From NCBI GenBank assembly GCA_963555985.3, contig CAUVXV020000006.1, forward strand, positions 1 to 27,844: a stretch of DNA of 27,844 nt. The letters run 5' to 3'. The position numbers and the translations under genes are program-made. The notes below the pieces were generated by a model. The model saw nothing but the letters and a program-made list of their open reading frames with translations. It made no database searches and was not told the DNA's origin. Shown piece after piece: positions 14,153 to 25,787 of this stretch (the stretch's first letter is position 1; each line of letters opens with the position of its first letter). Source of the stretch: Dehalococcoidia bacterium. GTDB lineage: Bacteria; Chloroflexota; Dehalococcoidia; Bin125.

Positions 14153-15799
14153 ATGAGAACCGCAAACGCGATCGCCGAGATGTTGAAGCGTGAGGGGGTC
14201 GACTTTGTGGTCGGCTATCCCGTCAATCCGATCTTCGAAGCCGCCGCCGAAGCCGACATCCGCACGATTGTCGTGCGGCAGGAGCGCACGGCGATCCATA
14301 TGGCCGACGCCTTCGGCCGGATGACGTCGGGCGATCAGGTCGGCGTCTACTTGACCCAGAACGGCCCCGGTTCCGAGAACTCATTCGGCGGTCTCGCCCA
14401 GGCCTACAGCGAGTCCGCTCCAATGGTCGCCATTCCCGGTGGCTACGCCCGCGCGCAGACAAACGTCGCGCCCAACTTCAGCGGCCTGGTCAACTTCCAG
14501 CACGTGAGCAAGTGGACCGAGCAGCTCACCGACCCCAACGATCTCTCCAACGCCGTGCGCCGCGCCTTCACCCACGCCCGCAACGGTCGTCCGCGACCGG
14601 TAGTGCTTGAGATTCCCGGCGACATTTGGGGCGCTGAGCACGAGGAGCCGATCGACTACCGGCCCACGCCATCACACCGCACCGGCCCCGACCCGGCTGA
14701 TGCGCGCAAGGCGGCGCAGACGCTGGTCAACGCCGAACGCCCGGTGATTTACGCGGGCCAGGGCGTGCACTACGCCAAGGCTTGGGATCAGCTCAAGGAA
14801 CTGGCCGAGCTGCTCGAATCGCCGGTGACGACTTCGCTCCAGGGCAAGAGCGCGTTCCCGGAAACGCATCCGCTCTCGCTGGGCTCGGGTGGCCGCGCCT
14901 TCCCGCGCGCGGTGCATGAGTTCGTCCAGAACGCCGACGTGATCTTCGGCATCGGCTGCTCCTTCGCCAAGACCGGCTTCGGTCTGGCGATGCCCAAAGG
15001 TCCGTACTACATTCACTCGACGCTCGACCCTGAGGACTTCAACAACGAGGTGGAGATCTCGGAGGGGATCGTCGGCGATGCAGGGCTCGTGCTTGACGCG
15101 ATCATCGGCGAGGTGCGGGAGCTGATCTCGGGACCGCGCGGTCGCGCGGACGCCATCGCCGCCGCGATCGCCCGGATCAACGGTGAGTGGCGCGCGGACT
15201 GGTCGCACAAGAGCGACCACAATGAAGCTCCGATCAACCCGTACCGGGCGCTGAAGGATCTGCACGCGACGCTGGACGAGACGGTCGGGATCGACAACGT
15301 GGTCGCTACCCACGACGCCGGCTCGCCGCGCGACCAGATGTCGCCGTTCTGGAACTCAACCACGCCGCTGAGCTACATCGGCTGGGGCAAGACCACCCAA
15401 CTCGGCACCGGCCTCGGTTACGCGATGGGCGCAAAAGTCGCCGCCCCCGAGAAGACCTGTCTCAACGTCTGGGGCGACGCCGCGATCGGCATGACCGGGA
15501 TGGACTTCGAGACGGCGGTGCGCGAAAACATCCCGATCCTCAGTGTGCTGCTCAACAACTTCTCGATGGCGATCGAGCTTCCAATCATGAAGACGGCGAC
15601 GGAGAAGTATCGGGCGACCGATATCTCCGGTCACTACGCCGACATGGCCAAGGCCTTCGGCGGCTACGGAGAGCGAGTGGAGTCGCCTGGTGATCTGAAG
15701 GAGGCGTTCAAGCGCGGGATCGCGGCGACGGAGGAAGGTCAGCCGGCGCTGATCGAGGTGATCACGTCGAAGGAGATTGACTACTCCAATCGGCACTAA
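14153..15799 (+). CDS. Thiamine-pyrophosphate-dependent enzyme (acetolactate synthase-like)
   Basis: VRQERTAIHMAD (catalytic Glu), GPG, RPVVLEIP, TPP motif WGDAAIGM...LLNN; GAGGAG SD. Confidence 0.9.
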   Translation: MRTANAIAEMLKREGVDFVVGYPVNPIFEAAAEADIRTIVVRQERTAIHMADAFGRMTSGDQVGVYLTQNGPGSENSFGGLAQAYSESAPMVAIPGGYARAQTNVAPNFSGLVNFQHVSKWTEQLTDPNDLSNAVRRAFTHARNGRPRPVVLEIPGDIWGAEHEEPIDYRPTPSHRTGPDPADARKAAQTLVNAERPVIYAGQGVHYAKAWDQLKELAELLESPVTTSLQGKSAFPETHPLSLGSGGRAFPRAVHEFVQNADVIFGIGCSFAKTGFGLAMPKGPYYIHSTLDPEDFNNEVEISEGIVGDAGLVLDAIIGEVRELISGPRGRADAIAAAIARINGEWRADWSHKSDHNEAPINPYRALKDLHATLDETVGIDNVVATHDAGSPRDQMSPFWNSTTPLSYIGWGKTTQLGTGLGYAMGAKVAAPEKTCLNVWGDAAIGMTGMDFETAVRENIPILSVLLNNFSMAIELPIMKTATEKYRATDISGHYADMAKAFGGYGERVESPGDLKEAFKRGIAATEEGQPALIEVITSKEIDYSNRH

Positions 15800-15815
15800 G
15801 GGTCAGCGATATCTA

Positions 15816-15842
15816 CTCTCCCCCCGCACTGCGGGGGGAGAG
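15816..15842. repeat. Perfect 12-bp GC-rich hairpin (REP-like element or terminator)
   Basis: CTCTCCCCCCGC-ACT-GCGGGGGGAGAG, 16 bp after the TPP gene stop; no poly-T tail. Confidence 0.65.
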
Positions 15843-15923
15843 ATCGAGGGCAAAAGGGGGCCTGGCGAATCGCTAGGTTCTTCGCCACGACCGAATGCTC
15901 GTCGCTACGCGACACAACATGGC

Positions 15924-16221
15924 ATGACCAACCTCCCTCACCCCCAATCTTTCTGGATCGTCCCCGACCAGTTCCTCGCGGGCAACTACCCGGGCGATAG
16001 GACTGAGCAATCCGCATTAGCCAAGCTCAAGCGCGTGCTTGAGGCCGGTGTCAACGTCTTCATCGACCTGACGCAGGAGCATGAACTCCGACCCTATGCC
16101 CATCTGCTGCCTGGGGATGCGACGCACTGCCGCTTCCCGATTCGAGATATGGGCATCCCGAACGCCCCAGACCGCCGAGCAGTCCATCTACATCCGCAGT
16201 TGGCGCGAAACCGCCCGCTGA
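15924..16221 (+). pseudogene. Protein-tyrosine/dual-specificity phosphatase pseudogene (catalytic core deleted, frameshift)
   Basis: N-part FWIVPDQFLAGNYPG...FIDLT...RFPIRDMGIP joins in the +1 frame (from 16162) to a family-like C-terminus TPQTAEQSIYIRSWRETAR*; the HCxxGxGRT loop is absent. Confidence 0.75.
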
Positions 16222-16399
16222 CGCCCCATCCAGCTCCCGGCGCGATATAATTCGATGACCCGTTCTAGAAAAGATCAACCGGAAAGCGCTGCTCATGCCT
16301 ATCACCTCCTTCCCCTGGTCCTGGTGTGGGTGTTCTGCCCGCGTGCGGCTGTTTTTCTGCCTGTCTCCGTTTTTTCTTCCCGGCAGCCCTCAAACCATG

Positions 16400-16520: not shown

Positions 16521-17507
16521 ATGCCCGCTGACTGGTTCGAGCGACTCTTCGGCTTCCAGGAGACCTCGGACGCCGTCTATGCCAATCTCAGGGTCGCTGG
16601 CGAGACCCTGCGCTCTCGCGCCAACGGACGCTCCTTCGCCATCGGCACACTCGAAACTCCAACCCTCGCCGAACTGCGTGAGCGGGTTGACATTCGGCGC
16701 GGAACCCCAATCCGCGTCCGCAATATCGTCGGAGAAGCCGGCGCGCTTCACGGCGACCCCGCCAATGCCCATGCACTGATCCAGGCCGCTTCCCAATTCA
16801 ACCTTTTGGAGATGGTCAGCCCGGACGTCACTCCCGAAGCGGGGATCACTGGCTACGCCCGCGACCACACTCAGGGGCCTGCCTGTGCGGTAGCCGCGGC
16901 CGCCGCAACTGTCTACCGCAACTACTTCGTGCCGCTCGGCGATCAGATCGGGCAGACCGCCGACCAGCAGATCGACTGTCTGTGTGACGTTCAGGACTGG
17001 CTCTCTGGCGGCGGAGAGCCGCTCTTTGAAATGCGCAACGGCTACGCCATGCCCGCTCGTGGATTGCTCAGCGCATTCGATGCGAGATTCTCAGCGTTGG
17101 AATCCTCAGAGGTCGACAAACTGCGCTCCTGCCTGCGGATCGGCCTCCACTGGGATGTCGAGGTCACCTACCCCAACGCGGGACATCTCGTCTCTCAGGC
17201 GTACTGTTCTGCGCTGCCGCTCGCGTATTGGCCTGAGTCAAGTGGGCAGGCCAATCGCTTTGCGGCGCTCATCCTCGAAGCGCTGTACGAGGCGACGCTG
17301 TTGGCTGCGATTGAGAACGCCGATCGCTACCCGGGCGCGCCCGTCTACCTCACCAGCGTTGGCGGCGGCGTCTTCGGCAACGATGATCGCTGGATCGTCA
17401 GTGCAATGAATCGAGCCTTCGAGCTCTGCGCCGAGAGCGGGCTTGACGTGCGGATCGTCAACTTCCGCGAGATTACCGACTCATACCAGGCCTTGGAGCG
17501 TGGATGA
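16521..17507 (+). CDS. Conserved hypothetical protein, probably macro/PARG-like
   Basis: DWFERLFGF, QAASQFNLLEM, DHTQGPACA, YRNYF, and VYLTSVGGGVFGN resembling the macrodomain GxGxFG loop; GGAGGAG SD. Confidence 0.75.
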   Translation: MPADWFERLFGFQETSDAVYANLRVAGETLRSRANGRSFAIGTLETPTLAELRERVDIRRGTPIRVRNIVGEAGALHGDPANAHALIQAASQFNLLEMVSPDVTPEAGITGYARDHTQGPACAVAAAAATVYRNYFVPLGDQIGQTADQQIDCLCDVQDWLSGGGEPLFEMRNGYAMPARGLLSAFDARFSALESSEVDKLRSCLRIGLHWDVEVTYPNAGHLVSQAYCSALPLAYWPESSGQANRFAALILEALYEATLLAAIENADRYPGAPVYLTSVGGGVFGNDDRWIVSAMNRAFELCAESGLDVRIVNFREITDSYQALERG

Positions 17508-19938: not shown

Positions 19939-21123
19939 ATGGACTTCCGCTTCTCCGACGCCGACCTCGCCTTTCGTGAGGAAGTGATCGATTTCCTCGC
20001 CGACGAACTGCCACCCGGTTGGGCTGACCTCTCCGAGGGGCCGGCTGAGGACGGCGCGGCGAATGAGGCGCGCTGGCAGTTCACGCGACAGTTCCATCAC
20101 CGGCTTGCCGACCGCGGCTGGCTCACGCTCGGCTGGCCGGTCGAGCATGGCGGCGCAGGCGCAGGTCCCGTTCGTCAAGCGATGTTCAATGAAACGATGG
20201 CGCACCACCGTGCGCCCACCTACAACCAGGGCGTCGACCGCGTCGGGCCGACCCTGATCATGTACGGCTCCGATCAGCAGAAGGAGTACTTCCTCCCGCG
20301 CATCCGCAGCGCCGACATCCAGTGGTGCCAGGGCTTCTCCGAGCCGGGCAGCGGCTCCGACCTCGCCTCGCTCCAGACCCGCGCTCAGCGCGACGGCGAC
20401 GACTACATCATCAACGGTCAGAAGATCTGGACCTCCGGCGCGCAGCACGCCGACTGGATCTTCATGCTCGCCCGCACGGAGCCGGACGCGCCCAAACATC
20501 GCGGGATCTCGTTTTTCCTAATCGACATGAAGACGCCCGGGATCACCGTGCGACCGCTAGTCAACATGGCCAACCGGCACCACTTCAACGAGGTCTTCTT
20601 CGAGGACGTGCGCGTGCCCAGCGCGAACATGGTCGGCGAGGTCAATCGCGGCTGGTATGTGGCGACGACGACGCTCGACTTCGAGCGCTCCGGGATTAGC
20701 CGCGTGGTGTCGGGGGTGCGGCTGCTGAACGAGTTGACCGAGTTGGCCTCAATCCCCGGCCCCGACGGCCGCCGTCCCGACGAGGATGTGCGCGTGCGCA
20801 ACAAGCTCGCCGACTTGCAGATCGAGTTCACGGTCGGTCGTTGGCTCGCCTACCGGGTCGCCTGGATGCAGTCGCAGGGGCTGGTCCCGAACCACGAGGC
20901 GTCGATGTCGAAGCTCTACGGCACGATGATCAATCAGCGCTTGGCGGGGATGATCAACATGTTCGGTCTGAGGGGCAACATCTCAGGCGAGCACGAGTAC
21001 GCGCCATTGCACGGGCGGATGCCGGACGAGTATCTGAACGCAGTGCCGCTGACGATTGCGGCAGGTACGAGCGAGATTCAGCGGAACATCATTGCGACGA
21101 GAGGTCTGGGGTTGCCGCGGTAG
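19939..21123 (+). CDS. Acyl-CoA dehydrogenase family protein
   Basis: MDFRFS, WCQGFSEPGSGSDLASL, INGQKIWTS, FNEVFFEDVRVP, TIAAGTSEIQRNII. GGAG SD before ATG 19939. Confidence 0.95.
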   Translation: MDFRFSDADLAFREEVIDFLADELPPGWADLSEGPAEDGAANEARWQFTRQFHHRLADRGWLTLGWPVEHGGAGAGPVRQAMFNETMAHHRAPTYNQGVDRVGPTLIMYGSDQQKEYFLPRIRSADIQWCQGFSEPGSGSDLASLQTRAQRDGDDYIINGQKIWTSGAQHADWIFMLARTEPDAPKHRGISFFLIDMKTPGITVRPLVNMANRHHFNEVFFEDVRVPSANMVGEVNRGWYVATTTLDFERSGISRVVSGVRLLNELTELASIPGPDGRRPDEDVRVRNKLADLQIEFTVGRWLAYRVAWMQSQGLVPNHEASMSKLYGTMINQRLAGMINMFGLRGNISGEHEYAPLHGRMPDEYLNAVPLTIAAGTSEIQRNIIATRGLGLPR

Positions 21124-21231
21124 CTATCCACTCCGGTCGCGGACATCTCATGACCGGTGCCCTTGTCAGGAAGCCGCCGTGTGGCAACACGTGTTCGCGC
21201 AAGATTTTACACGAGGGCCTCTTTATTCCAT

Positions 21232-21261
21232 TTGACAAGAGGAAAAATAATCCCTTATTCT
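21232..21261 (+). promoter_or_regulatory. Sigma70-type promoter upstream of the DGQHR gene
   Basis: TTGACA (21232-21237), 18-bp spacer, TATTCT (21256-21261) in an AT-rich tract. Confidence 0.6.
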
Positions 21262-21319
21262 TCTGACAGCGGTTGATGTTCTACAGAGGGCAAGCAACCG
21301 GGTATCGAAAGGATCCGTC

Positions 21320-22483
21320 GTGGAACTCGTAGTCCAGCGCACGTCAGAAGTCCCAGTTCTCGAGACTGTTGCCCATCGTTTCTGTCAGGGAGGGCGTGCC
21401 GTCTACTATCTGGTCTTGGAAATGGGAGAGTTCGACGACTCACTCCCAGAAGAGGTCAACAGGAAGATCATCCAGGACCAGCGGCGATTCATTCCGTCTC
21501 ACGCGAGCACGATCGCCGACTACTTGCGGGATGTCGAGCAATGGGTACTCGGGCCGGTGACCCTCAGCATCGATCCCAAGTACGTCGAATTTGAGCCATT
21601 CCCCGGCCAAGAGGACGGTCCGCCGAGCGTGCTTGGGAGGTTCCGCATTCGACAAGGTGGTCGCACTGCCCTCAAAATGCTTGATGGGCAGCATCGTCGC
21701 GCAGCGATCCGCCAGGTTCGTACACAGACAGCTCAGACGGCTGAGGGGGCAGAGCTCGTTGAGCGATTCGAGCAGTCTCTGATGCCCGTTGCAATCTATG
21801 AGGAGTCCAAGACTCACGCGATTCGCCAGATGTTCGCAGACATGGCGCAGCAACGACCGCTGGATGCCGTCACTCGTGCCCGATTCGATCGTCGCGATCC
21901 ATTCAATCGCGCCGCAGAAGAGGTAATGGAGCGCAGCGAATGGCTCAGGCAGTTCGTTGAGATGGACCGTCCAAGCGTTGCTCACACGAGCCCAAAACTC
22001 CTCTCCTTCAATCAGCTTGCCGCCAATCTCAAGACCCTGGAGTATGGGTATGGCGGGCGTGTGAGCAAGACGCGTCAGCGAGAAGCCGATCAGAACTTCG
22101 AGAGCATTGTTGACCATGGACTGAACTGGATAGACGACTTCTTGCCCATTGCGCGCGCCGAGTACCTCGTTTTACTCGACTTCGGCGAGGACGAGCACTA
22201 CCTGCCGCAACAGCGTCGAAAGACGTTCGCTTACACGGCAACAATGCTGCGCATTTTAGCTGGCTGCGTCTACGAATGGGATAAGCAAGCGCCGCAAGCC
22301 GATTTGAGTTCGCTCGCGGATTTCATCCGTGGGATCAACTTCGAAACTCACCAGAAGCAGGGCTTGCTCCGCTCGGCTGGTGTGCTTGACCAACCCGGTA
22401 CGTCGATCATCGGTCGGCGCCAAGAAATGCAGAGCACCATCGCTGCAATCGTTCGTGGGGCTGCTAAGCAGCTCGGCAACTAG
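21320..22483 (+). CDS. DGQHR-domain (DndB-like, ParB superfamily) protein
   Basis: QRR...H...IADYL, LGPVTL, MLDGQHRRAAI, IRQMFADM motifs; no dndCDE in the window. Confidence 0.85.
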   Translation: MELVVQRTSEVPVLETVAHRFCQGGRAVYYLVLEMGEFDDSLPEEVNRKIIQDQRRFIPSHASTIADYLRDVEQWVLGPVTLSIDPKYVEFEPFPGQEDGPPSVLGRFRIRQGGRTALKMLDGQHRRAAIRQVRTQTAQTAEGAELVERFEQSLMPVAIYEESKTHAIRQMFADMAQQRPLDAVTRARFDRRDPFNRAAEEVMERSEWLRQFVEMDRPSVAHTSPKLLSFNQLAANLKTLEYGYGGRVSKTRQREADQNFESIVDHGLNWIDDFLPIARAEYLVLLDFGEDEHYLPQQRRKTFAYTATMLRILAGCVYEWDKQAPQADLSSLADFIRGINFETHQKQGLLRSAGVLDQPGTSIIGRRQEMQSTIAAIVRGAAKQLGN

Positions 22484-22540
22484 TCGGCGAGGCATGCCTG
22501 CGTGTCTTCCGGAAATTCTCACGGAAGGAGGTGATGTCCC

Positions 22541-22687
22541 ATGTGGAACATTGGTGAACAGCCAGGCGTCGGACGCTACTGCTGCACAAACTGCGGCTGG
22601 TCCGTCTACCTGGACGACGCCACTGACCGCTTGCCGCCGTGTGGCAACTGCGGCAAGGGTCAGCGAACCACGTACCGGCGCTGCTAG
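22541..22687 (+). CDS. Small zinc-ribbon protein (48 aa)
   Basis: Below the ORF-track cutoff. AAGGAGGTGA SD, then MWNIGEQPGVGRYCCTNCGWSVYLDDATDRLPPCGNCGKGQRTTYRRC* with two CxxC pairs (GExPGxGxYxC..C...LPPC..C). Confidence 0.85.
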   Translation: MWNIGEQPGVGRYCCTNCGWSVYLDDATDRLPPCGNCGKGQRTTYRRC

Positions 22688-22744
22688 CGGGCACCTCCGG
22701 TAGGGCGAGGCTAGGATATCAACGGCCAAGCCCAAGTGGGCCAC

Positions 22745-22785
22745 GGTGCTGCTGGGTAGTCCTTGTAGGATCCCTCAGCAGCACC
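22745..22785. terminator. Long hairpin downstream of the Zn-ribbon gene
   Basis: GGTGCTGCTG (22745-22754) pairs with CAGCAGCACC (22776-22785), with an inner TCCT-TGT-AGGA stem; weak T tail. Confidence 0.45.
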
Positions 22786-22982
22786 TCACTCCTTTGTGGA
22801 CTGCGGACGTACGCATTCCCAAATTGCCCCCAGAATGCGTACACAAGCGACACACAGTGAACTAGCTGGACCTGGCGCGCCCAGTTCTGCTCAGCCCGCT
22901 GGGTCTGCACTTCGGTCGATCTCGGTGTGTGCCCGTCGTATGAGCTCCGCCCGCGATCGGCGGTGGCGAATGCCAGCGAGAC

Positions 22983-23034
22983 AGCGAAGTCCACGCGACA
23001 TCATTGCTACGCGGGGCCTGGGTCCCCCCGCTAG
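22983..23034 (+). pseudogene. Displaced, decayed 3' end of an acyl-CoA dehydrogenase gene
   Basis: AGC GAA GTC CA- CGC GAC ATC ATT GCT ACG CGG GGC CTG GGT C-C CCC CGC TAG = SEV(Q)RDIIATRGLG(L)PR* vs SEIQRNIIATRGLGLPR* at 21070-21123; 38/54 nt identical by hand count; two 1-bp deletions. Confidence 0.85.
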
Positions 23035-23043
23035 AGTGAGTCC

Positions 23044-24424
23044 ATGCCGCCGAACTGGGCCAATCAGACGCTCTGGACGGGTGACAACATCGACATCATG
23101 CGGGGCATGAACTCCGCTTCTGTCGACCTGATCTACCTCGATCCGCCGTTCAACTCCAACCGCGACTACGCTGCGCCGATCGGCTCGGAGGCAGCGGGCG
23201 CTGCCTTCAAGGACACCTGGACGCTGAACGATCTCGATGTCGCCTGGCACGGCGAAGTGGCGGAGCGCGAGCCGGCGCTGGCGGCGGTGATTGAGTCGGC
23301 GGGGCTCTCGCACGGGAGGCCGATGAAGGCCTACCTGATCATGATGTCGGTGCGGCTGTTGGAGCTGAAGCGCATCCTGAAGCCGGACGGCACCATCTAT
23401 CTGCATTGCGACTTGACCGCCGGTCACTACCTGAAGACGGTGATGGACTCGATTTTCGGCCAGGCGCAGTTCCGCAACGACATCATCTGGCGTCGGCAAC
23501 GAGCGAAAGGCCTGGCCACGCGGAACATGGCCAACAACCACGATTTGCTCCTGCGCTATGCGCTCTCCGACGCCGCGACGTACCACGCTCAGTACCAGCC
23601 GCACGACGCCGAATACGCGGAGCGAGCCTATCGACACATCGAGCCAGAAACGGGGCGGCGCTATCGGCTTACGGATCTCACGAACCCCAATCGGAACCGC
23701 CCGAATCTGACCTACGAGTTTTTGGGCGTTCATCGAGTCTGGCGCTGGACGCGCGAGCGGATGGAGCAGGCGCTCGCCCAAGGTCGCGTCGTTCAGACAG
23801 CACCTGGGCGCGTCCCTCGCTACAAGCGCTACCTGGACGAACAGCCCGGACGCGCAGTTGATTCAGTCTGGGATGACATTGGCCCGATCCAGGGACGGGC
23901 CAGAGAGCGCACTGGCTATCCGACGCAGAAGCCTCTTGCCTTGCTGGAGCGGATCGTCTCGCTCTCGTCCCACCCAGGCGATCTCGTCTTCGATCCGTTC
24001 TGCGGTTTGCGCGACTGCGTGCGTGGCGGCGGAGAAGTTGGAGCGTCAGTGGGTCGGGATCGACATTTCACCAAAGGCGGCCGAGCTCGTCCGCACTCGT
24101 ATGCAGCGCGAGCTGGGTCTGTTCTACACCGGAGCGCACCGCACTGATGTCCCCCAGCGGACTGACCTGGGCGATTTGCCGCCGTACAGTTCGCCGTCGA
24201 ACAGGCAGTTGCTCTACGGCGCGCAAGAGGGTCGCTGCAACGGCTGTCTGACCTGGTTCCCGTTCCGCAACATGACGATCGATCATGTCGTGGCGCGTTC
24301 TCGCGGGGGCACTGACCACATTGAGAATCTGCAACTGCTCTGCGGGGCGTGCAATTCGACGAAGGGCACGGGTACGCAAGAGGACCTGATCGCGCGGCTG
24401 CGTGATCAGGGGATTCGCACCTAA
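23044..24424 (+). pseudogene. Beta-class N4/N6 DNA methyltransferase fused to a C-terminal HNH nuclease, with a +1 frameshift
   Basis: LIYLDPPFNS (motif IV), GYPTQKPLALLERI, DPFCG. Removing one T at 24006-24008 gives FCGCATACVAAEKLERQWVGID and continues to CNGC...IDHVVARSRGGTDHIENLQLLCGACNSTKG (459 aa). May be a sequencing error. Confidence 0.88.
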
Positions 24425-24513
24425 TCGCTGCGCGCGTAGGCGTTGCCCAGCGCGCCCTACGAGGCCACCAGCAAGGGGACGCAGTAGGTCAGTGGGATCT
24501 TCGAGGCGAGTTC
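24421..24513 (-). pseudogene. Displaced, decayed 3' end of the nrtS-like gene
   Basis: Reads ELASKIPLTYCVPLLVAS*GALGNAYARSD* vs ELAWKVPLTYCVPFLVASWGALGNAYARN* at 25497-25586; mostly third-position differences plus one TGG>TAG nonsense change. Confidence 0.9.
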
Positions 24514-25496: not shown

Positions 25497-25787
25497 CTAG
25501 TTCCGCGCGTATGCATTCCCCAACGCACCCCAGGACGCCACCAGAAACGGCACGCAATAAGTCAACGGAACCTTCCAGGCCAACTCCCACGTGCCATCGC
25601 CGGCGACGATCACCGTGCCCTGATTGATCGCCACCAGGATCGTCCCCACGACGGCGCTGGTCAGGATCGAGCGGCGGAGCATTCGCCGGTTGCGGAGGGC
25701 GCAGCGCCAGCACTCCAACCGCTCCTTCATCCGAAAGTGGCGGCCTTGCGGCGGATTCGACAGATGTGGACAGGCGACCACGCTCAT
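25497..25787 (-). CDS. nrtS: NrtS-like small membrane protein
   Basis: AVVGTILVAINQG and LTYCVPFLVAS are characteristic of the family. Start 25787 (leaderless) or 25730. Confidence 0.75.
   Translation of the reverse strand: MSVVACPHLSNPPQGRHFRMKERLECWRCALRNRRMLRRSILTSAVVGTILVAINQGTVIVAGDGTWELAWKVPLTYCVPFLVASWGALGNAYARN

What the first reader, a model, noticed from the sequence alone, without database searches (positions are those of the whole stretch)
21232..22785. Stand-alone DGQHR/DndB-like protein plus 48-aa Zn-ribbon: candidate two-gene defence or regulatory module
The cassette carries only a promoter, a DGQHR gene, a tiny Zn-ribbon gene with a perfect SD, and a hairpin. DndB is known as the regulator of phosphorothioation operons, and DGQHR domains belong to the ParB/Srx nucleotide-binding superfamily found in conflict loci. 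No dndACDE is present. Its position beside an MTase-HNH and a TA pair suggests a defence role (inference).
Basis: partly seen in the sequence, partly recalled or inferred. Interest (0 to 1): 0.7.

Follow-up and report, generated by a model that had tools for sequence, protein, structure and literature searches.

The report
Stand-alone DndB-like gene, hitch-hiking zinc ribbon
Both genes are real but occur apart more often than together: one encodes an uncharacterised relative of the DndB protein that lives without the DNA-sulfur modification genes and likely acts against invading DNA, and the other is a tiny predicted zinc-binding protein whose gene trails many unrelated defence-type genes.

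Summary
In detail: promoter, 387-aa DGQHR gene, 48-aa Cys-ribbon gene with a textbook ribosome site, and hairpin lie where stated; no dndC/D/E was found in the genome. The two-gene-module reading is only partly supported. The pair recurs at one variable hot spot (two haplotypes here, one relative), but only 1 of 20 close genome loci has the ribbon, 13 of 16 ribbon loci lack the DGQHR gene, and the ribbon follows type IIG/I RM, toxin-antitoxin, TIR and AbiTii genes elsewhere. The large protein belongs to a dnd-independent Chloroflexota clade that keeps DGQHR (120 of 120) but replaces the family's FxxxN asparagine by Ala/Ser (120 of 120); 24 of 120 carry an N-terminal Swt1-type HEPN with an intact RxxxxH. 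Best reading (0.45): a self-promoted, mobile nucleotide-gated DNA-binding conflict protein; the ribbon is an optional passenger. Function is untested and many relatives sit among housekeeping genes. The scan noted the solitary clade before on other DNA (e1-1356172). New variant of a known kind; interest 0.4.

The parts
21124..22888 (+). Strain-specific cassette; absent at this position from the 97%-identical main contig C1, which carries a diverged copy about 4 kb further on in the same hot spot
   Evidence: blastn of window against C1; GC 0.52-0.63 against 0.65 for the upstream host gene
21232..21261 (+). Sigma-70-like promoter TTGACA-18-TATTCT
   Evidence: a similar site in 7 of 21 upstream regions of close loci by a strict pattern, this one included
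21320..22483 (+). 387-aa DndB-like protein: ParB/Srx-fold domain (about 20-180) with DGQHR 122-126 and FADMA in place of FxxxN, plus all-helical C-terminal domain
22525..22534 (+). Shine-Dalgarno AAGGAGGTGA, 6 nt before the small gene
   Evidence: sequence
22541..22687 (+). 48-aa DUF1451-like Cys-ribbon protein (metal binding predicted)
22745..22785 (+). Stable hairpin without U-tract; strong stems of other sequence follow the ribbon gene in the C1 and L005 copies too
21173..21188 (+). Exact 16-nt copy of 22633-22648 (inside the ribbon gene); unexplained, not conserved in three other loci
   Evidence: 0 of 3000 simulations

Best explanation
The 387-aa gene is a mobile cargo with its own predicted promoter from a dnd-independent DndB-like clade, and it likely works as a nucleotide-gated DNA-binding sensor against invading DNA, while the zinc-ribbon gene behind it is an optional passenger. 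Shown: ParB/Srx-type N-terminal fold in the model, invariant DGQHR, loss of the FxxxN asparagine, absence of dnd genes, exchange at a variable hot spot, HEPN-fused and tandem forms among relatives, separate distribution of the ribbon. Inferred: it dimerises and binds ATP/GTP like DndB; the helical C-terminal domain grips DNA; the Asn-to-Ala change slows hydrolysis so that the bound state lasts. In fused relatives that switch would turn on the HEPN RNase; in solo forms such as this one the output would be a block on the bound DNA or nucleotide depletion. The ribbon is probably co-transcribed and may serve as a generic metal-binding helper of conflict operons.
For: Fold: the top nine VIA-align rows are all proteins of the ParB/Srx or DUF262 kind by their titles (PadC Z 6.8, rmsd 3.1, 99 aligned; SspE, KorB, sulfiredoxin, BrxU, DndI; the family label for some rows is recalled). 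DGQHR and H61 in 120 of 120, Ala/Ser at the FxxxN position in 120 of 120 against Asn in 88 of 89 distant DGQHR proteins; profile alignment puts FADMA on FADLN (probability 99.4). 24 of 120 have an N-terminal extension with R-N-x-x-x-H-P, 22 of them marked PF18731; other fusions are Mrr_N and HARE-HTH; two genomes have HEPN-fused plus solo genes in tandem. Patchy: 6 of 61 family genomes, 3 of 401 in the phylum sample. The hot spot also carries MTase-HNH, Gp49 TA and GmrSD genes in different strains; L002 and L003 lie next to or within three genes of PDC-S11. Purifying selection (dN/dS about 0.1-0.25). Literature passages: a DndB-like protein binds ATP and GTP (10.1101/2025.10.10.680097); DUF262 domains act as modified-DNA sensors and the C-terminal domains as DNA binders (PMC12065111); DndB proposed as possible nucleotide-degrading effector (PMC10853773).
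Against: No activity was measured. This protein has no recognisable effector domain. Of 20 close genome loci only 2 had a clear defence-library hit among the neighbours scanned (one search scanned 30 neighbour proteins of L002-L020, L135 and L136, not all; hits on a RecN-like ATPase are discounted); six Anaerolineae loci keep one position between housekeeping genes, as inherited genes do. No copy was found in viral contigs. Fold scores are under Z 8 and Foldseek had no match at E 0.001. Equivalence of the lost Asn to ParB Box III could not be shown by profile alignment, and its function in the family is listed as unknown (PMC4619093).
Confidence: 0.45

Rival explanations
1. Orphan transcription regulator: like Salmonella DndB it is an ATP-modulated repressor that binds its own promoter and perhaps other cargo genes, here controlling itself and the ribbon gene.
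For: DndB represses dndBCDE through two TACG-N10-CGTA boxes (PMC4507180). Members have AT-rich upstream regions, one relative has a weak KorB/ParB HTH match, and many sit among housekeeping genes.
Against: No TACG-N10-CGTA box in 21 of 21 upstream regions and no shared inverted repeat seen; no constant regulated partner gene; HEPN fusions with intact motif are not expected for a plain repressor.
Confidence: 0.22
2. Dedicated two-gene module: the ribbon is the cognate partner or antitoxin of the DGQHR protein, in the manner of Dazbog.
For: Same order and 54-96 nt gaps in 3 loci whose large proteins are only 42-48% identical; four more pairs share a longest-contig length (4198837, 4974375, 61733, 2570); these fall in at least three places of the tree.
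Against: 1 of 20 close genome loci has the ribbon; 4 of 6 family genomes with the clade lack it genome-wide and 3 of 5 with the ribbon lack the clade; L001 holds the large gene alone at the same hot spot; 13 of 16 ribbon loci and 80 of 80 viral ribbon loci lack it; 0 of 58 longer ribbon proteins contain DGQH; ribbon dS 0.66 against 2.1 for the large gene between the two haplotypes suggests separate histories (48 codons only).
Confidence: 0.13
3. Non-defence or residual role: an effector-less remnant of a HEPN-fused system, or a nucleotide-handling enzyme, kept by weak selection and shuffled through hot spots.
For: 95 of 120 are solo; a broken copy lies near the same hot spot in G021; the conserved Asn is lost; sulfiredoxin and serine kinases use this fold as enzymes.
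Against: Strong purifying selection and many invariant residues in both domains.
Confidence: 0.2

Closest known systems
DndB, regulator of dndBCDE (Salmonella enterica Cerro 87; TIGR03233, PF14072)
   Same: PF14072 over nearly the whole length, DGQHR, QR pair, similar size; 25% identical over 223 aa to a dndC-linked DndB
   Different: 61 bits against the 328 cut-off; no dndC/D/E; FxxxN asparagine replaced; no TACG-N10-CGTA box; relatives fuse to HEPN
DpdB of 7-deazaguanine systems (NF041060)
   Same: DGQHR domain
   Different: 24 bits against 300; no dpd or que genes in the cassette
DUF262 sensors: Dazbog, GmrSD/BrxU, SspE, Menshen NsnA
   Same: ParB/Srx NTP-binding fold followed by a helical domain; Dazbog is two genes, the second apparently needed to avoid toxicity
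   Different: No PF03235 hit for this protein; DGQHR not DGQQR; no nuclease fused here; second gene not obligate
HEPN-ParB fusions of conflict systems (PMC3710099, PMC3632139)
   Same: Swt1-like HEPN fused to ParB-type domains is in print in general terms
   Different: This clade, its motif change and its solo and tandem forms were not found described in the searches run
DUF1451 (PF07295) zinc-ribbon proteins
   Same: Matches the C-terminal ribbon (104-140 of 146); Atlas neighbours of a homologue at 0.94 are short DUF1451 proteins
   Different: Stand-alone 48-aa form with an extra Cys pair; no function found in print (4 papers list the term, listing only)

Membership tests
DGQHR domain (TIGR03187/PF14072) | Score above curated cut-off | tested here: met
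   105.3 vs 58.85; 130.1 vs 29.1
DGQHR domain (TIGR03187/PF14072) | DGQHR pentapeptide | tested here: met
   Residues 122-126; 120 of 120 homologues
DGQHR domain (TIGR03187/PF14072) | QR pair | tested here: met
   Q54-R55 here; but N-R in 90 of 120 homologues
DGQHR domain (TIGR03187/PF14072) | FxxxN motif (named in PMC4619093) | tested here: not met
   FADMA; Ala 106 and Ser 14 of 120. Filed therefore as a variant clade, not a typical member
ParB/Srx fold | Structural match of the N-terminal domain | tested here: met
   PadC Z 6.8, rmsd 3.1, 99 aligned, with related entries in the next rows; scores are middling
ParB/Srx fold | NTP binding or hydrolysis | not testable with these tools
   needs biochemistry
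DndB equivalog (TIGR03233) | Score above 328 | tested here: not met
   60.9 bits
DndB equivalog (TIGR03233) | In a dndBCDE operon | tested here: not met
   positive control
DndB equivalog (TIGR03233) | TACG-N10-CGTA boxes upstream (shown for Salmonella only) | tested here: not met
   0 of 21 upstream regions
DpdB (NF041060) | Score above 300 | tested here: not met
   24 bits
Dazbog | First gene with DUF262 (PF03235) | tested here: not met
   Only PF14072 at E 0.1
Dazbog | Homology of either gene to DzbA/DzbB models | tested here: inconclusive
   PADLOC gave only DndB and DpdB; that Dazbog models are in that library was not checked
DUF1451 (PF07295) | Score above 26.1 | tested here: inconclusive
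   25.9 bits, E 1.3e-05; Atlas neighbours of a homologue are DUF1451
Obligate two-gene defence module | The two genes travel together | tested here: not met
   1 of 20 close loci; 3 of 16 ribbon loci; 2 of 61 genomes with both
Obligate two-gene defence module | Protection against phage | not testable with these tools
   needs bench work

The most novel reading that the evidence does not exclude
A dnd-free DGQHR clade has rebuilt the ParB-type active site (Asn to Ala, Arg to His) into a slow-release NTP clamp that defends on its own or arms interchangeable outputs (HEPN RNase fusions, HEPN-plus-solo tandem pairs), and 48-aa DUF1451-type ribbons are an unrecognised general accessory subunit of RM, TA, TIR and Abi operons. 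It would give a dnd-free test of whether DndB-type proteins are effectors rather than only repressors.
Probability: 0.25. Interest if true: 0.7.

Novelty: new variant of a known kind. Interest (0 to 1): 0.4.

Why it matters
Whether DndB-family proteins are only repressors or also anti-invader effectors is left open in print (PMC10853773). A single-gene clade free of the phosphorothioation machinery, with natural solo, HEPN-fused and tandem forms and one clean active-site substitution, makes that question testable. The small ribbon is a lead of its own: conserved at about 71% across phyla, it keeps turning up beside unrelated conflict genes.

Tried and rejected
Complex prediction of the two proteins: no verdict (score 0.00 twice), used neither for nor against. 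Sequence search of solved structures with the clade profile: 0 hits at E 1. Foldseek PDB: none at E 0.001. Fold search of the ribbon model: best Z 3.0, uninformative; no clear solved match for the C-terminal helical domain, which was not folded alone. Profile alignment to the genome's own ParB failed (probability under 0.1). Rfam: 0 matches in 21100-23100. No RNA holder listed. Viral contigs: no relative of the large protein. A recalled idea that TdpAB are DGQHR proteins was dropped: the paper search gave no support and earlier scan notes call them HerA/NurA-like. A recalled idea that Dazbog has a DndB domain plus ribbon was not borne out by the passages read. The first motif-III count used a faulty pattern (some rows caught the wrong site); the aligned count replaces it. 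The tree is the quick version; the careful search did not finish. Dropped rows: G176 ribbon hit (E 1e-4, three stops); 60 of 180 homologues not listed. Many 'fusions' of the ribbon look like read-through into a downstream ribbon gene and are taken as adjacency only. Contig depths were not used as abundance.

Full report
Observation. A sigma-70-like site lies at 21232-21261, a 387-aa ORF at 21320-22483 and a 48-aa ORF at 22541-22687, an AAGGAGGTGA site 6 nt before the small gene and a hairpin at 22745-22785 (z -3.3) without a U-tract. The large protein scores 130 bits on PF14072 and 105 on TIGR03187, but only 61 of 328 on the DndB equivalog and 24 of 300 on DpdB; PADLOC gives only DndB and DpdB. 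The small one scores 25.9 of 26.1 on DUF1451. Both evolve under purifying selection. Contigs of two runs of one study reproduce the stretch without differences.

Setting. The closest named loci are Dehalococcoidia and other Chloroflexota. The window is a 97%-identical variant of a region of the main contig C1; the two differ in a hot spot between an acyl-CoA dehydrogenase gene and a HAD gene. C1 has two MTase-HNH genes there and, at another slot, a second copy of the pair: large protein 48% identical, ribbon 83%. L005 has the pair at the same hot spot (43% and about 76%). L001 has the large gene alone there, and G021 a broken copy near GmrSD and a Gp49 TA pair.

Not a dnd regulator by context. 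No dndC, dndD or dndE was found in this genome, nor dndC in 5 of 5 other family genomes with the gene; the dndC search rings strongly in a control. A dndC-type motif lies within 5 kb in 0 of 20 close loci and 66 of 88 distant DGQHR loci. The Salmonella operator is absent from 21 of 21 upstream regions.

A distinct clade. 180 proteins match at E 1e-20; the 120 listed, the query among them, were analysed. DGQHR and H61 are invariant; the FxxxN asparagine, named as a family feature in PMC4619093, is Ala in 106 and Ser in 14, whereas 88 of 89 distant DGQHR proteins keep Asn and 73 of 89 have Arg at the H61 position. Profile alignment confirms the register. 95 are solo, 1 has a C-terminal extension and 24 an N-terminal extension, all 24 with R-N-x-x-x-H-P; 22 are marked Swt1-like HEPN, and of three rescanned one passed the curated cut-off. 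Among cluster representatives, relatives carry Mrr_N, HARE-HTH or a weak KorB-type HTH. Two genomes have a HEPN-fused and a solo gene in tandem. The model (pLDDT 85.7) has a ParB/Srx-type N-terminal domain (PadC Z 6.8, rmsd 3.1, 99 aligned; SspE, KorB, sulfiredoxin, BrxU follow) and a helical C-terminal half without a clear match. The clade is patchy: 6 of 61 family genomes, 3 of 401 in the phylum sample.

Is the ribbon a partner? Against: 1 of 20 close genome loci has a ribbon within 5 kb (L004 and L008 are short); among 61 family genomes 2 have both, 4 only the large gene, 3 only the ribbon (p 0.07). Of 16 genome loci of close ribbons, 13 lack the large gene in the DNA held; five of these are one orthologous insertion, so 3 of 12 after collapsing, and 5 of 5 such genomes searched whole lack the clade. 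Their neighbours are MmeI-like type IIG genes (2), a DUF433 gene pair that looks like a toxin-antitoxin unit (5; the partner had no Pfam hit), type I hsdM, DUF5131, a TIR-domain gene, or unknowns. 80 of 80 more distant viral ribbon loci lack it; four plasmid or phage records read show lone ribbons. Of 58 longer ribbon-bearing proteins none has DGQH; partners include ThsB-TIR, AbiTii, HNH, HicB and ADP-ribosylglycohydrolase, many probably read-through. Between the two haplotypes the ribbon has dS 0.66 and the large gene 2.1. The ribbon is therefore best read as a general companion of conflict genes. No enrichment test against background genes was run.

Mechanism. Best reading (0.45): a nucleotide-gated DNA-binding protein acting against foreign DNA, by analogy with DUF262 sensors (PMC12065111; Dazbog) and with a DndB-like ATP/GTP binder. 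All functional steps are inferred. Counter-evidence is real: no effector domain here, only 2 of 20 close loci with a defence-library neighbour in a partial scan of 30 proteins, and six Anaerolineae loci fixed between housekeeping genes (those labels are read by eye from the sequences). Rivals: orphan repressor 0.22, residual or enzymatic role 0.2, obligate pair 0.13.

Literature. Nine searches found no description of a solitary DGQHR clade or of a DGQHR-ribbon pair; the library lacks most subscription papers. Seen as passages only: PMC12065111, PMC10952713, PMC10853773, PMC4507180, PMC4619093, PMC3632139, PMC3506569, PMC3710099, 10.1101/2024.10.26.620412, 10.1101/2022.08.27.505566, 10.1101/2025.10.10.680097; one passage plus section 10 of 10.1101/2022.05.11.491447. 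No supplements were read. HEPN-ParB fusions are in print in general. Xia et al. 2019 on ATP control of DndB was seen only as cited by others.

Verdict. Observation confirmed; interpretation partly supported. New variant of a known kind; interest 0.4.

Noticed in passing
window 23044-24424: The MTase-HNH gene is split by a frameshift near 24006; the C1 copy is one 459-aa ORF and contigs of two runs lack one base there, so it is an assembly slip or a minor variant.
   Followed up: partly
window 21086-21110 and 22998-23022; 24431-24507 and 25504-25580: Cargo blocks carry duplicated 3' ends of the flanking host genes (acyl-CoA dehydrogenase; a small membrane-protein gene). L003 likewise has a partial duplicate of the gene behind its DndB-like gene. 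Suggests cassette exchange by recombination on gene ends.
   Followed up: partly
window 21173-21188 and 22633-22648: Exact 16-nt repeat upstream of the promoter and inside the ribbon gene; perhaps a scar or a decayed earlier ribbon copy.
   Followed up: partly
L135 7048-9901; L136 6819-12015: Tandem HEPN-fused plus solo DndB-like genes, in L136 followed by a UvrD-like helicase gene: candidate heteromeric defence operon.
   Followed up: partly
L242-L246: Ribbon gene upstream of a DUF433 gene and a small partner resembling a PIN toxin (label by recall, no Pfam hit) in five genomes of one family.
   Followed up: partly
L010 6272-7726, L012 6243-7502, L016 6296-7525: A membrane-anchored coiled-coil gene without a specific family follows the DndB-like gene in three Anaerolineae loci: another possible facultative partner.
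   Followed up: no
window 16521-17507 and 15777-16250: A 328-aa gene with no Pfam, NCBIfam or PADLOC hit beside a partly divergent phosphatase-like fragment; C1 has an Mrr gene inserted here: a second variable spot.
   Followed up: no
L147, L149 (G694): Two other PF14072 genes in the relative's genome, one directly before queD/queC-like genes without dndC: possibly a Dpd-like unit.
   Followed up: no
G000 contigs C2-C11: All small contigs are 95-99% identical to stretches of C1, so they are strain haplotypes; this explains the 7.5% contamination figure.
   Followed up: yes
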